Virus record (IMG/VR): IMGVR_UViG_3300011114_001021
Coordinates: 1-56,044 of that record
DNA length: 56,044 nucleotides
Strand: one strand, 5' to 3'
Source: a virus
Taxonomy: Duplodnaviria > Caudoviricetes
The notes under the pieces were generated by a model. The model was not told where the DNA came from. It searched no databases and saw only the letters and a list, made by a program, of their open reading frames with translations. Made by a program: the position numbers and the translations under genes. The first letter of the stretch is position 1. Each line of letters starts with the position of its first letter. Shown here piece after piece: positions 38,368 to 40,892 of this stretch.

Positions 38368-38526
38368 TTATCTCTCCATAGGGCGTGATGGGCGATTATA
38401 TCGAAGATCGGATTTATTTAAGACATATGCATTATTTAGAATCTTTCTTTCCCACTCAGTCAAATTGACTTTTTTAAAAGTCTCGCCGGATATCGTATTG
38501 ATTAACGTATAATTTTCTGTTTTCAT
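38368..38526 (-). CDS. small hypothetical protein (52 aa) between tRNAs
   Basis: Manual translation MKTENYTLINTISGETFKKVNLTEWERKILNNAYVLNKSDLRYNRPSRPMER. Confidence 0.5.
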   Translation of the reverse strand: MKTENYTLINTISGETFKKVNLTEWERKILNNAYVLNKSDLRYNRPSRPMER

Positions 38527-38652: not shown

Positions 38653-38740
38653 TGGTACCGGTGGCCGGACTCGAACCGGCATGACATTTTAAAGTCAATG
38701 GATTTTAAGTCCATTGTGTCTACCATTTCACCACACCGGC
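38653..38740 (-). tRNA. tRNA-Leu(UAA)
   Basis: ATGGA-CTTAAAA-TCCAT, long variable arm, GGTTCGAGTCC, CCA. Confidence 0.95.
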
Positions 38741-38745
38741 TTTCT

Positions 38746-39762
38746 TCATCGATCTTCACAATTGATCTTGCCAGACATTTTTTCCTGAAGGGATTGGATG
38801 TCCGCATCGACCATCAGACGTGCGAGGTCGGCGCATTTCGTCTTCGGCTCCCAGCCGAGTTTCTGCTTCGCCTTGCTGTAATCGCCGATGAGCAGCTCCA
38901 CTTCAGCGGGACGGAAATAACGCGGATCAATCTCGACATGTTTGTTCCAGTCGAGACCGGCGTGGCCGAAGGCAATTTCCAAAAATTCGCGGATACTGTG
39001 CGTCTCGTTCGTGGCCACGACGTAATCATCCGGCTGTTCCTGCTGAAGCATCAGCCACATCGCCTCGACATATTCCTTCGCGTAACCCCAGTCACGCTTG
39101 GCGTCGAGATTGCCGAGGAACAGCTTGTTTTGCAGACCGGCCTTGATGTGGGCGATGGCCCGGGTGATTTTGCGCGTCACAAAAGTTTCGCCGCGCCGGG
39201 GCGATTCGTGGTTGAACAAAATTCCGTTGCTGGCGTGCAGGCCGTAGGACTCGCGGTAGTTCACCGTGATCCAGTAGGAATAAACCTTCGCGCAACCGTA
39301 GGGGCTGCGCGGATAAAATGGCGTCGTCTCCTTCTGCGGCACTTCCTGCACCAGACCGTACATCTCGCTCGATGACGCCTGATAAAAGCGCGGCTTGAGT
39401 CCCGTCTCGCGGATCGCCTCCAGCAGCCGCACCGTGCCGGTGGCGGTGATGTCGGCGGTGTACTCCGGGCTGTCGAAACTGACGCGGACGTGGGATTGCG
39501 CGGCGAGATTGTAAATTTCCTCCGGCTGAATTTTTCCGAGCAGCCGCGCTATCGCGCTGCCATCGCTCAAATCGCCGTAATGCAAAAACAGCCGGGCCTT
39601 GCTGTCGTGCGGGTCGCTGTAAATATCATCGAGCCTTCCGGTGTTGAAGGTGCTGGCGCGACGGATGAGGCCGTGTACTTCATAACCTTTGCCCAGCAAA
39701 AGTTCGGCGAGATAGGAACCGTCCTGTCCGGTGATGCCGGTGATGAGTGCTTTTTTGCCCAT
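38746..39762 (-). CDS. gmd: GDP-mannose 4,6-dehydratase
   Basis: [46 protein letters not shown]; visibly GC-rich relative to flanks. Confidence 0.97.
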
Positions 39763-39796
39763 ATTTTGTCTATTAAGTTAACGGGGTTATAGAATA

Positions 39797-39920
39797 GGGA
39801 GATTGCAGCCGGATATAAACCGACATCTTCAGCTTAGAAAGCTGATGTTTTTACGAAGGGTGACCTCAGTCGCGCCCGCCTCTGCCGAGGCGTTTCATTC
39901 GTATTTTAAACTATGCAATC
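39797..39920 (-). ncRNA. tRNA-Arg(UCU)-like RNA with 52-nt structured D-loop insertion
   Basis: Acceptor GATTGCA/TGCAATC, D stem GTTT/AAAC, anticodon arm TCAGC-TTTCTAA-GCTGA, T arm GTCGG-TTTATAT-CCGGC; insert closed by TACGAA/TTCGTA. Confidence 0.7.
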
Positions 39921-39927
39921 AAAGTGC

Positions 39928-40073
39928 GGTCCCAGTGCTTATTCCATGTCGGCGTCTTTTCGATTCCGATGGGCTCAAGTCATGAATTTCGCTGTAGCTC
40001 ATCATGATCTCTTACCAGCTCTTGGCATCGCGACCGCCTTACGGAGGCTACAGTCACTGAATCCACTGGGACC
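39928..40073 (-). ncRNA. putative structured ncRNA (10-bp closing stem, possible pseudoknot)
   Basis: GGTCCCAGTG/CACTGGGACC ends; CTGTAGC/GCTACAG and TCATGA/TCATGA pairings cross. Confidence 0.55.
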
Positions 40074-40136
40074 TGTCAGTCAGTCTCTCATGCAACTCAA
40101 TGAGAAGCAAGGATCTTAGAGATTGCTGATCTGACA
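40074..40136 (-). ncRNA. putative three-way-junction RNA element
   Basis: TGTCAG/CTGACA closing stem, AGCAA/TTGCT arm, TCTCAT/ATGAGA arm. Confidence 0.45.
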
Positions 40137-40146
40137 AAATTATTAA

Positions 40147-40225
40147 GCCGAATTGAGGTAAGTCTAGGGACGACGACCCCATCCCCCTAGAACCGGGGCA
40201 TGAAGCCCCTGTCCCTCAATCCAGC
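40147..40225 (-). ncRNA. putative three-way-junction RNA element
   Basis: GCTGGATTGAGG/CCTCAATTCGGC closing stem, GGGGC/GCCCC and TCTAGGG/CCCTAGA arms. Confidence 0.5.
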
Positions 40226-40234
40226 AAATCAAAA

Positions 40235-40311
40235 TGGTAGCGGGTGAGGGATTCGAACCCTCGATCTCAACGTTATGAGCGTTGCGAGATAACCAACTTC
40301 TCTAACCCGCG
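40235..40311 (-). tRNA. tRNA-Met(CAU), initiator-like
   Basis: CGCGGGT.../ACCCGCT with unpaired 1:72, CTCATAA loop, GGTTCGAATCC, CCA. Confidence 0.9.
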
Positions 40312-40318
40312 TTAAATT

Positions 40319-40326
40319 TATTTATA
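40319..40326 (-). promoter_or_regulatory. late promoter TATAAATA for tRNA/ncRNA cluster
   Basis: Exact match 7 nt upstream of the tRNA-Met 5' end. Confidence 0.75.
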
Positions 40327-40358
40327 GGCGGCAGCTTTAGATTTGCCGAGCATTTTTA

Positions 40359-40892
40359 CTATGCAATCCAAGCTGGAACCTCTCGGCGTTTCCAAGAAAA
40401 TAGCTGTCTCTTCTCGCCGAGGTAGTAATTTCTATATGATTTAATCGAATCACCGAATACTTTGTATTCTTCGGGCATAGCCGGAGTCGGCTGTGTAAAT
40501 GAGCCTTCGACAATATTCTTTGGCGCGCAACTCAAATCTTTCGTCAATCTACTAGTAGCGTGAACCTTACCATATCGGTGCGTGTATTCTTCCATCAGAG
40601 AGACAAACATCTCGAATAGCCACGCATAATTAGAAGAACTATGCCTTGCCCAAATAGCCGAAGGATGATTGACGTGCGTGGCAGAATACAGACTTGATTC
40701 CCGATTATCGGGAATGCTGTATCGAGTTTGCCTTCGTCCAGTTTTGCTAATCCCTAGGGATTGAATTCCATCCAGAACTCTATGGGAATTCGAAAGCAAT
40801 TGAGCATATTCGAGAATCATTTTCACGCAATGTTTATCAACGTGCATCTTTGCACAGTCTTTTACATCATGCTCTAGATAAAATATGTTCAT
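40359..40892 (-). CDS. pyrimidine-dimer DNA glycosylase/DenV-related family protein
   Basis: MNIFYL...A..HVDKH.VKMILE.AQLLS, TH.NHPS..W, EY..RYGK.H, YR.YY; start reassigned. Confidence 0.75.
   Translation of the reverse strand: MNIFYLEHDVKDCAKMHVDKHCVKMILEYAQLLSNSHRVLDGIQSLGISKTGRRQTRYSIPDNRESSLYSATHVNHPSAIWARHSSSNYAWLFEMFVSLMEEYTHRYGKVHATSRLTKDLSCAPKNIVEGSFTQPTPAMPEEYKVFGDSIKSYRNYYLGEKRQLFSWKRREVPAWIA

What the first reader, a model, noticed from the sequence alone, without database searches (positions are those of the whole stretch)
39797..39920. tRNA-Arg(UCU)-like RNA with a 52-nt branched insertion in the D-loop
Seen: all four tRNA stems are intact, but the D-loop holds a helix TACGAA/TTCGTA (39852-39903) enclosing hairpins GCCTC-GGCA-GAGGC and GAC-TGAG-GTC. 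The T-loop is TTTATAT and the 3' end is TCCC, not NCCA. Known: T4 encodes stable RNAs of unknown function (species C/D) in its tRNA cluster. Inference: a tRNA mimic, such as a decoy for anticodon nucleases or a protein scaffold, or a tRNA with a non-canonical intron. Standard tRNA scanners would probably miss it.
Basis: partly seen in the sequence, partly recalled or inferred. Interest (0 to 1): 0.75.

Follow-up and report, generated by a model that had tools for sequence, protein, structure and literature searches.

The report
Phage tRNA-Arg relic with D-loop insert
A freshwater T4-like phage carries, inside its tRNA gene cluster, a tRNA-Arg(UCU)-shaped gene whose D-loop holds a 52-base folded insert and whose elbow nucleotides are remodelled; it looks conserved rather than dead, but its function is unproven.

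Summary
On the minus strand, 39920-39797 folds into a complete cloverleaf with anticodon UCU. A 52-nt three-way junction (39903-39852) sits in the D-loop, the T-loop is UUUAUAU and the tail is UCCC. ARAGORN and Rfam at gathering score miss it. A covariance model built from it aligns end to end to real tRNAs when the insert is skipped, including a canonical tRNA-Arg(UCU) in a complete relative. The window is a fragment of a T4-like freshwater phage.

Only one other haplotype was found, in 2 contigs. It keeps both cloverleaf and insert: 9 of 124 bases differ and 77 of 78 pair cells stay paired. That is faster than the neighbouring true tRNAs (4/301) and slower than adjacent third codon positions (64/328).

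My best reading (0.4) is a selection-maintained tRNA-Arg derivative, processed like a tRNA but not a normal decoder. Rivals:
- A young pseudogene (0.3).
- A working tRNA with an expanded D-loop (0.2).
- An intron (0.04).

No homology to T4 RNAC/RNAD was found. Two haplotypes cannot give covariation, and expression of this RNA was not shown. A structured 315-nt RNA lies directly upstream; it is absent from Rfam and is flanked by a 10-nt direct repeat.

The parts
39797..39920 (-). tRNA-Arg(UCU)-like RNA gene, 124 nt, whole element
   Evidence: Read and folded. Model R1 scores it 155.5 bits. Partial Rfam tRNA match.
39914..39920 (-). acceptor stem, 5' strand GAUUGCA
   Evidence: 7 of 7 pairs with 39801-39807, invariant in both haplotypes.
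39908..39911 (-). D-stem 5' strand GUUU, followed by D-loop AAAA (39904-39907)
   Evidence: 4 of 4 pairs with 39847-39850. This stem is not in the minimum-free-energy fold.
39852..39903 (-). 52-nt insert: closing helix UACGAA/UUCGUA with two hairpins (three-way junction), 61.5% G+C
   Evidence: Single copy in the window and in the 174 loci held.
39877..39892 (-). insert hairpin A, CGCCUC-GGCA-GAGGCG
   Evidence: Two one-sided changes to G-U in the other haplotype keep pairing on the minus-strand RNA only. The loop varies.
39858..39876 (-). insert hairpin B, GGCGCGAC-UGAG-GUCACCC
   Evidence: Identical in both haplotypes.
39829..39845 (-). anticodon arm UCAGC-UUUCUAA-GCUGA; anticodon UCU at 39836-39838
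   Evidence: The same arm sequence occurs in canonical tRNA-Arg(UCU) genes of 5 viral contigs.
39808..39824 (-). T-arm GUCGG-UUUAUAU-CCGGC, with the non-canonical T-loop at 39813-39819
   Evidence: G53-C61, U54 and U55 are kept; C56 and A58 are replaced by U.
39797..39807 (-). acceptor 3' strand UGCAAUC, discriminator U, then CCC (CCU in the other haplotype)
   Evidence: All 5 canonical tRNAs of the cluster encode CCA.
39921..40234 (-). 315-nt structured non-coding RNA directly upstream (context, possibly co-processed)
   Evidence: The 478-nt stretch 39763-40240, which includes the tRNA-like, folds with z -4.99. Compensatory pairs. Contigs from RNA libraries cover 39932-40114. No Rfam family.
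40235..40311 (-). tRNA-Met(CAU) with a C1-A72 mismatch (initiator type), encodes CCA
38746..39762 (-). GDP-mannose 4,6-dehydratase gene; its start lies 34 nt downstream of the tRNA-like RNA
   Evidence: Pfam PF16363, E 1.3e-148; 57% G+C.
39917..39926 (.). direct repeat copy 1 (partner at 40227-40236) bracketing the 315-nt element and overlapping the first bases of the tRNA-like gene
   Evidence: 10 nt, 90% identity, spacing 310.

Best explanation
The element is a derivative of the phage's tRNA-Arg(UCU) gene. It acquired a 52-nt, G+C-rich three-way-junction module in the variable pocket of the D-loop, where G18, G19 and position 20 normally sit. It also lost the matching T-loop nucleotides C56 and A58. 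It has been kept as a cloverleaf-shaped RNA by purifying selection.

Inferred mechanism:
1. It is transcribed as part of the minus-strand tRNA operon: tRNA-fMet, the 315-nt RNA, this RNA, gmd, then four more tRNAs.
2. RNase P cuts at its 5' end (39920). That same cut would define the 3' end of the upstream 315-nt RNA.
3. Its 3' end is trimmed to UCC and repaired to CCA.
4. The product presents an intact tRNA-Arg(UCU) anticodon arm and acceptor stem. The bulky module at the elbow keeps it from being an ordinary ribosomal decoder.
5. It therefore works mainly off the ribosome, either as a processing punctuation mark between the 315-nt RNA and the gmd message, or as a mimic or bait for enzymes that read the tRNA-Arg anticodon arm.

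Shown: the anatomy, the tRNA ancestry, conservation in a second haplotype, and an intermediate substitution rate. Inferred: transcription, processing, and every functional step.
For: Anatomy and tRNA ancestry:
- Searches give the cloverleaf and the partial Rfam match.
- R1 aligns end to end to canonical tRNAs with the insert skipped.
- In the complete relative G003, a canonical tRNA-Arg(UCU) lies 2 nt after a tRNA(CAU) at the end of its cluster.
- Five viral contigs carry canonical tRNA-Arg(UCU) with the same anticodon-arm sequence.

Conservation:
- The second haplotype (L002 = L094, and L087) keeps all seven helices. 77 of 78 pair cells are paired, against 35-47% when partners are slid.
- Three of 4 stem changes keep pairing. 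The two in hairpin A give G-U, which pairs only on the minus-strand RNA.

Substitution rate:
- 9/124 differences in this RNA.
- 64/328 at gmd third positions (p 0.0014).
- 64/192 at third positions of the upstream gene (p 2e-8).
- 9/31 in the spacer next to it (p 0.0023).

Other points:
- L087 keeps the RNA although gmd is mostly deleted there.
- All 21 cloverleaf pairs are intact while 2 of 4 near-universal T-loop positions have changed. A single neutral rate gives a likelihood of at most 0.003 in a crude model of my own.
- The plus-strand ORF across the element has a stop in L002.
- An engineered aptamer insertion in the D-loop of E. coli tRNA-Tyr was not stably expressed, whereas the variable-loop version was (PMC5397188, passages). 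This argues against ordinary decoder function.
Against: - Only two distinct haplotypes exist, so there is no two-sided compensatory change in this RNA (0 of 39 pairs).
- It evolves faster than the four shared canonical tRNAs of the cluster (9/124 against 4/301, p 0.0028).
- Its rate is no different from two other spacers (16/188 and 6/47) or from third positions of two downstream ORFs. The phages are a recombination mosaic, so low divergence could reflect history rather than selection.
- One change in L002 breaks pair 27-43.
- No function is demonstrated, and no RNase P, charging or nuclease data exist.
- A pure punctuation role does not explain the intact anticodon loop. A decoy role has no supporting gene context: Pfam and PHROG scans of 37 distinct neighbouring ORFs show no tRNA repair or tRNA-targeting genes.
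Confidence: 0.4

Rival explanations
1. It is a young pseudogene. A working tRNA-Arg(UCU) was disabled by a 52-nt insertion in a cluster prone to insertions and deletions. It is now decaying, and the stems are still intact only because little time has passed.
For: - The universal nucleotides G18, G19, C56 and A58 are lost.
- It scores below every tRNA detector threshold.
- It evolves about 5 times faster than the neighbouring tRNAs.
- Its rate equals that of two spacers.
- CCA is not encoded, whereas all 5 true tRNAs encode it.
- The cluster shows other recent rearrangements: the 315-nt insertion with a flanking repeat, gmd present or mostly deleted, and tRNA-Leu present or absent.
- It occurs in one narrow lineage only: 1 other contig in IMG/VR over 3 pattern scans that targeted this RNA, and 2 of 80 metagenome loci.
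Against: - All 21 cloverleaf pairs and all 18 insert pairs are intact in the window.
- Divergence is lower than at flanking third codon positions and the adjacent spacer.
- Three of 4 stem substitutions preserve pairing.
- The loss of G19 and C56 reads as a matched G-C to A-U swap if the two A residues before the insert take positions 18 and 19. This is my reading, not a test.
Confidence: 0.3
2. It is a working tRNA-Arg(UCU) that keeps the insert. The module projects from the D-loop's variable pocket, the elbow is held by A-U instead of G-C contacts, and the RNA is charged by ArgRS and reads AGA.
For: - Most secondary and tertiary signature positions are present by reading: U8, A14, A15 with U48, A21, U33, A37, G53-C61, U54, U55, purine 57, and a possible A19-U56.
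- C35 and U36, which I recall as ArgRS identity elements, are present.
- The phage uses AGA (122 of 711 Arg codons). Its other tRNAs also read A-ending codons: UGU, UCC and UAA.
- A relative and T4 both keep a tRNA-Arg(UCU).
- The tail UCC could be completed to CCA.
Against: - A58 and G18 are lost.
- Only one unpaired A lies between the insert and the D-stem, so the ArgRS determinant A20 (recalled) may be missing or paired.
- A D-loop aptamer insertion was not tolerated in E. coli (PMC5397188).
- I know of no natural bacterial or phage decoder with such an insert. Two literature searches listed none, and I read only the listings.
- Its substitution rate is higher than that of true tRNAs.
Confidence: 0.2
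3. The 52 nt are an intron that is removed to give a standard-length tRNA.
For: The insert is a self-contained folded module with a 6-bp closing helix flanked by A runs. Archaeal tRNAs can carry introns at non-standard positions (PMC3241643, abstract in the listings only).
Against: - There is no bulge-helix-bulge geometry: 4 unpaired nt on the 5' side, 1 on the 3' side, and a 6-bp helix.
- 52 nt is too small for a group I intron, and no Rfam intron match was found.
- The initiator tRNA has the bacterial C1-A72 mismatch. From memory, not from any call here, bacteria have no tRNA splicing endonuclease.
- Exact excision leaves a 5-nt all-A D-loop and still a non-canonical T-loop.
Confidence: 0.04
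4. It is not an RNA gene at all: a chance fold, a plus-strand feature (terminator) or a small protein gene.
For: Terminator-like hairpins on the plus strand at 39877-39892 and 39829-39845. A plus-strand ORF of 60 aa at 39803-39985.
Against: - R1 aligns to real tRNAs at E about 1e-10.
- The ORF has a stop in L002.
- All genes here are on the minus strand.
- The G-U changes fit minus-strand RNA only.
Confidence: 0.02

Closest known systems
Phage T4 species 1 RNA (rnaC) and species 2 RNA (rnaD)
   Same: They are stable RNAs encoded in the tRNA cluster of a T4-type phage, next to tRNA-Arg(UCU), and their function is still unknown (PMC3014915 and PMC9697503, passages). rnaC carries a canonical T-arm and an acceptor-like helix in its 3' part, with a weak tRNA-Sec-model alignment of 17.5 bits.
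   Different: No sequence or model similarity: R1 found neither at E up to 10. rnaC keeps a canonical T-loop and has a 5' extension and a long extra arm. This RNA has a full four-arm cloverleaf, a canonical anticodon loop, a remodelled T-loop and a D-loop insert.
Canonical phage tRNA-Arg(UCU), as in T4, relative G003 and contigs L170-L174
   Same: Anticodon arm, D-stem, variable loop, T-stem frame and cluster position after a tRNA(CAU).
   Different: The D-loop GG is replaced by A residues plus a 52-nt module. The T-loop is UUUAUAU instead of UUCGAUU. The discriminator is U, not A, and CCA is not encoded.
Engineered Spinach-tRNA fusions (PMC5397188)
   Same: A folded RNA module inserted into a tRNA loop.
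   Different: These are synthetic. The D-loop version, between positions 16 and 18, was not stably expressed and only the variable-loop version worked (passages). Here the D-loop version is natural and conserved in two haplotypes.
tRNA-like processing signals (plant mitochondrial t-elements, MALAT1 mascRNA) and non-proteinogenic tRNA-Gly of staphylococci
   Same: They are tRNA-shaped RNAs that serve RNase P punctuation, or tRNAs that lose elbow nucleotides (G18 G19) and work off the ribosome.
   Different: Different organisms, and none has a D-loop insert. No processing or charging data exist for this RNA.
Archaeal tRNA introns at non-canonical positions
   Same: Intervening sequence outside the anticodon loop of a tRNA gene (PMC3241643, abstract in search listing only).
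   Different: No bulge-helix-bulge motif is present. The host is inferred to be bacterial from the initiator-type tRNA, and I recall no tRNA splicing endonuclease in bacteria.

Membership tests
Canonical tRNA (Rfam RF00005 / ARAGORN) | Four-stem cloverleaf with a 7-nt anticodon loop, U33 and purine 37 | tested here: met
   21 of 21 cloverleaf pairs in the window; loop UUUCUAA.
Canonical tRNA (Rfam RF00005 / ARAGORN) | Score at or above the family threshold over the full length | tested here: not met
   Rfam gives 20.6 bits against 29, covering model positions 10-63 only. Nothing at gathering score. ARAGORN finds none.
Canonical tRNA (Rfam RF00005 / ARAGORN) | Elbow nucleotides G18, G19, U54, U55, C56 and A58 | tested here: not met
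   the D-loop is AAAA + insert + A and the T-loop is UUUAUAU. U54 and U55 are kept; G18, G19, C56 and A58 are absent.
Canonical tRNA (Rfam RF00005 / ARAGORN) | Aminoacylation and decoding | not testable with these tools
   Needs biochemistry.
T4 rnaC / rnaD stable RNAs | Sequence or structure homology to T4 rnaC or rnaD | tested here: not met
   The R1 search that included the T4 locus L083 matched only T4 tRNA-Gly at E up to 10.
T4 rnaC / rnaD stable RNAs | Encoded within the tRNA cluster of a T4-type phage | tested here: met
T4 rnaC / rnaD stable RNAs | Accumulates as a stable processed RNA | not testable with these tools
   Contigs cannot show RNA ends or levels.
tRNA with archaeal-type intron | Bulge-helix-bulge motif at both intron boundaries | tested here: not met
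   structure: 4-nt and 1-nt unpaired flanks around a 6-bp helix.
tRNA with group I intron | Ribozyme core of about 200 nt or more, usually in the anticodon loop | tested here: not met
   The insert is 52 nt and in the D-loop. No Rfam intron match at E up to 10.
Bacterial Y RNA-like tRNA mimic (YrlA, RF02553) | Match to the family model | tested here: not met
   The only weak YrlA matches lie over pairs of true tRNAs, none at 39797-39920.
tmRNA | tRNA-like domain plus tag reading frame | tested here: not met
   ARAGORN and Rfam find none.
tRNA pseudogene | Evolves at the local neutral rate | tested here: inconclusive
   slower than adjacent third codon positions and the adjacent spacer (p 0.0014 to 2e-8), equal to two other spacers, and faster than true tRNAs (p 0.0028).
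Miniature inverted-repeat insertion (origin of the insert) | Multiple copies with terminal inverted repeats | tested here: not met
   One copy in the window. In the 174 loci held, it occurs only at the homologous site. The insert's 19-mer occurs in IMG/VR only in the L002 contig.

The most novel reading that the evidence does not exclude
This would be a natural, working tRNA-Arg(UCU) whose D-loop variable pocket carries a 52-nt three-way-junction module, and whose elbow pair G19-C56 has been swapped for A-U. The RNA would be charged and would either read AGA with an unprecedented architecture or be diverted from the ribosome. In the second case it could serve as bait for anticodon-directed host nucleases, or as an aminoacyl donor. 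It may work together with the co-located 315-nt structured RNA.
Probability: 0.2. Interest if true: 0.8.

Novelty: new variant of a known kind. Interest (0 to 1): 0.5.

Why it matters
Phage tRNA clusters are known to hold tRNA-shaped RNAs whose function has stayed unknown for fifty years (T4 RNAC and RNAD). This element is a cleaner case. Its ancestry from tRNA-Arg(UCU) can be read directly, and the change is specific: a module placed at the elbow, with the matching T-loop positions changed and every stem kept.

If it is functional, it shows a route by which a phage converts a decoder tRNA into something else, or it shows that bacterial translation tolerates a large D-loop module. It also illustrates that standard tRNA finders miss such genes. 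If it is a pseudogene, it is an ordinary by-product of a rearrangement-prone tRNA cluster.

Tried and rejected
- **RNA evidence for the tRNA-like RNA.** In the one read-laying run (runs X15, X16 and X17 from RNA libraries, X14 DNA), no contig covers 39833-39914. A hole in contigs proves nothing, and tRNA-sized RNAs are poorly captured.
- **More homologs.**
  - 80 IMG/VR loci and 80 metagenome loci around the upstream gene gave only L002 (= L094) and L087.
  - Three pattern scans of IMG/VR for the T-arm, the insert and a relaxed anticodon-to-T-loop pattern gave only the L002 contig.
  - 30 whole related records searched with R1 gave the L002 contig and one canonical tRNA-Arg.
- **Origin of the insert.** A 19-mer scan of bacterial and archaeal genomes gave 3 hits, about the number I would expect by chance. 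One hit (L168, a Gaiellales MAG) extends to 43 nt at 86% identity, but it does not share the hairpins and has no Rfam match. I treat it as probably chance.
- **19-mer from the 315-nt RNA.** The extra hit, L166, lies in an unrelated G+C-rich stretch without tRNAs and is chance.
- **Multi-copy element test.** No other copy of the insert's terminal repeats was found.
- **Relative G003.** The 485-nt gap in its tRNA cluster holds a 156-aa ORF, not an RNA like the 315-nt element.
- **Gene context.** Pfam and PHROG scans of 37 distinct ORFs found no tRNA repair, CCA-adding, aminoacyl-transferase or nuclease genes.
- **Not used.** I did not run tRNA detectors on an insert-deleted sequence; the reverse test with R1 answers the same question. 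Structure prediction, complex prediction and the protein searches were not relevant.

Full report
**What the window is.** The window is a whole IMG/VR virus record of 56,044 bases, estimated 32% complete.
- Nearly all long ORFs lie on the minus strand.
- Pfam finds a family B DNA polymerase, the phage translational regulator RegA, the UvsX C-terminal domain with RecA, a DnaB-like helicase, dCMP deaminase and a thymidylate-synthase-like protein. It also finds a sugar-modification block: GDP-mannose 4,6-dehydratase, glycosyltransferases, FkbM methyltransferases and a HAD-nucleotidyltransferase fusion.
- This is a T4-type phage.
- Nine DNA runs not flagged as possible sources hold 56-94% of the sampled words of 39700-40400. 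Eight are labelled viral, lake-water or freshwater metagenomes (river-labelled runs are all flagged as possible sources); the ninth, X14, carries a coded organism label. X14 is the only one of them I laid. It has error-free contigs over 39431-39820, 39980-40169 and 40224-40500.

**The observation.** Read on the minus strand, 39920-39797 has this layout:
- Acceptor stem GAUUGCA/UGCAAUC, then U8 A9.
- D-stem GUUU/AAAC.
- D-loop of AAAA, a 52-nt insert, and A.
- A26.
- Anticodon arm UCAGC-UUUCUAA-GCUGA, anticodon UCU.
- Variable loop AGAU.
- T-arm GUCGG-UUUAUAU-CCGGC.
- Discriminator U, then CCC.

The insert (39903-39852) is a 6-bp helix, UACGAA/UUCGUA, closing two hairpins. The minimum-free-energy fold gives all of this except the weak D-stem (-41 kcal/mol, z -2.9, 2 of 200 shuffles as good). 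The plus strand folds less well. Every detail in the finding is correct. ARAGORN lists 5 tRNAs and not this one. Rfam at gathering score lists the same 5. With relaxed thresholds, the Rfam tRNA model matches only the 3' two-thirds: 39808-39854, 20.6 bits against a cut-off of 29.

**It is tRNA-derived.**
- I built a covariance model from the element and its one homolog (R1: 124 positions, 39 pairs).
- Across the window and 81 loci (630,833 bases), the model found the two elements themselves. With the 52 nt skipped, it also found full-length alignments to the phage's own tRNA-Gly(UCC) (46.6 bits, E 1.8e-10), its L002 counterpart, T4 tRNA-Gly and one tRNA-Met.
- Across 30 whole related virus records, it found the L002 contig and one more match. 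That match is a canonical tRNA-Arg(UCU) in a complete 169,777-bp relative. It is the last gene of a cluster in which ARAGORN finds 13 tRNAs within the fetched locus, and it starts 2 nt after a tRNA(CAU).
- D-stem, position 26, anticodon arm, variable loop and T-stem frame line up with that gene.
- Five other viral contigs carry canonical tRNA-Arg(UCU) genes with the identical arm CAGCUUUCUAAGCUG.
- In the window, the element also follows a tRNA(CAU), here an initiator type with C1-A72, but it is separated from it by 315 nt.
- T4 itself has tRNA-Arg(UCU) next to rnaD and rnaC.

**What has changed relative to a tRNA.**
- Lost: the D-loop GG and the T-loop C56 and A58.
- Kept: U8, A14, A15 with U48, A21, U33, A37, G53-C61, U54, U55 and a purine at 57.
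- If the two A residues just before the insert take positions 18 and 19, then G19-C56 has become A-U. The insert would then sit in the position-20 pocket, where D-loops naturally vary in length. This is my reading of the sequence, not a test.
- The tail is UCC followed by C (window) or U (L002). All five true tRNAs of the cluster encode CCA.

**Conservation.**
- Among 80 IMG/VR and 80 metagenome loci that encode relatives of the upstream gene, only L002 (the same contig as L094) and L087 carry the element. Their copies are identical to each other.
- Three pattern scans of IMG/VR add nothing.
- There are therefore two haplotypes. They differ at 9 of 124 positions with no indel.
- 77 of 78 pair cells are paired, against 35-47% when partners are slid by 1-3 columns.
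- Of 4 stem changes, 3 keep the pair. Two are G-U in hairpin A, which would be A-C on the plus strand. One improves G-U to G-C in the T-stem. One breaks pair 27-43.
- There is no two-sided compensatory change, and with two sequences none could be expected to carry weight.
- Rates:

| Region | Differences | p against the tRNA-like RNA |
|---|---|---|
| tRNA-like RNA | 9/124 (7.3%) | - |
| Four shared canonical tRNAs | 4/301 (1.3%) | 0.0028 |
| gmd third positions | 64/328 (19.5%) | 0.0014 |
| Upstream gene third positions | 64/192 (33%) | 2e-8 |
| Spacer to gmd | 9/31 | 0.0023 |
| Spacer Met-Gly | 16/188 | not different |
| Spacer upstream gene-fMet | 6/47 | not different |
| Third positions of two downstream ORFs | 11/80 and 11/187 | not different |

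- The RNA is thus less constrained than a true tRNA and more constrained than its immediate flanks. Because identity varies along these genomes, part of this could be recombination history.
- A separate argument concerns the pattern within the window's copy. Two of four near-universal T-loop positions have changed while none of 21 cloverleaf pairs is broken. Under one neutral rate this has a likelihood of at most about 0.003 in a crude model of my own.
- The plus-strand ORF over the element is broken in L002.
- L087 has lost most of gmd but keeps the element. L087 is otherwise nearly identical to L002, so this is weak evidence.

**Interpretation.**
- I favour a selection-maintained derivative of tRNA-Arg(UCU) that is processed like a tRNA but is not an ordinary decoder (0.4).
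- Its place in the operon makes RNase P cleavage at 39920 the natural way to finish the upstream 315-nt RNA and to free the gmd message, which starts 34 nt downstream.
- Its intact anticodon arm leaves room for a mimic or bait role.
- An engineered D-loop insertion in E. coli tRNA-Tyr was not stably expressed, while a variable-loop insertion worked (PMC5397188, passages). This counts against simple decoder function.
- A young pseudogene (0.3) fits the lost universal bases, the faster rate, the missing CCA and the narrow distribution. It does not fit the perfect stems.
- A working expanded tRNA (0.2) fits the retained tertiary signature positions and the phage's use of AGA (122 of 711 Arg codons). 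It has no precedent that I know of or that two literature searches listed (listings only).
- An intron (0.04) lacks any known splicing signal.

**Comparison with T4 RNAC and RNAD.**
- Their function is still unknown (PMC3014915 and PMC9697503, passages).
- T4 rnaC does have a canonical T-arm and an acceptor-like helix, so tRNA-shaped stable RNAs in T4-type tRNA clusters are a known kind.
- This element is not their homolog and differs in architecture.

**The neighbouring 315-nt RNA (39921-40234, minus strand).**
- The 478-nt stretch 39763-40240, which spans this RNA, the tRNA-like and flanks, folds far better than shuffles (z -4.99, 0 of 100).
- It has no Rfam match at E up to 10 and no conserved ORF.
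- Between the two haplotypes it shows two clean compensatory pairs, A-U to G-C and G-U to U-A, one wobble change, and a peripheral hairpin replaced by a shorter one.
- Contigs from two RNA libraries cover 39932-40114 with 0-3 other letters. The tool warns that DNA can be present in such libraries and that contigs cannot rank expression.
- The element is bracketed by a 10-nt direct repeat (39917-39926 and 40227-40236, spacing 310). The repeat overlaps the end of tRNA-fMet plus spacer on one side and the start of the tRNA-like gene on the other.
- Two metagenome contigs (L086, L099) and one X14 contig end exactly at 40224.
- This looks like an insertion between a once-adjacent tRNA-fMet and tRNA-Arg, possibly polymorphic in the population. 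I could not show a form without it.

**Limits.**
- There are only two haplotypes.
- There is no expression data for the tRNA-like RNA.
- There is one read-laying run, on contigs only.

Noticed in passing
window 39921-40234 (-): A 315-nt highly structured non-coding RNA lies between tRNA-fMet and the tRNA-like gene. It has no Rfam family. It shows two clean compensatory pairs against L002 and a replaceable peripheral hairpin. Contigs from two RNA libraries cover 39932-40114. It may be a new phage RNA, analogous in position to T4 RNAC and RNAD.
   Followed up: partly
window 39917-39926 and 40227-40236; contig ends at 40224: A 10-nt direct repeat (90% identity, spacing 310) brackets the 315-nt RNA. 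Contigs L086 and L099 and one contig of run X14 all end exactly at 40224, just after the upstream repeat copy. This suggests an insertion that may be polymorphic among strains.
   Followed up: partly
window 38746-39762 (-); L087 4100-4320: GDP-mannose 4,6-dehydratase (57% G+C in a 43% G+C phage) sits inside the tRNA cluster. In contig L087, most of the gene is deleted and only fragments remain.
   Followed up: partly
window 38653-38740 (-): tRNA-Leu(UAA) is present in the window but absent from the homologous place in L002 and L087, whose tRNA clusters are otherwise 97-100% identical.
   Followed up: no
window 38368-38526 (-): The 188-nt spacer between tRNA-Met and tRNA-Gly holds a 52-codon ORF and is 91.5% identical to L002. 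Whether it is coding or RNA is undecided.
   Followed up: no
L083 2909-3047 (-) (phage T4 rnaC): The 3' 95 nt of T4 species 1 RNA form an 8-bp acceptor-like helix and a canonical T-arm, and give a weak tRNA-Sec-model alignment (17.5 bits). No dedicated family for it matched in the Rfam copy searched.
   Followed up: partly
L168 7001-7042 (Gaiellales MAG): A 43-nt stretch is 86% identical to most of the 52-nt insert, upstream of a start codon. It has no shared hairpins and no Rfam match, so it is probably chance, but this is not excluded.
   Followed up: partly
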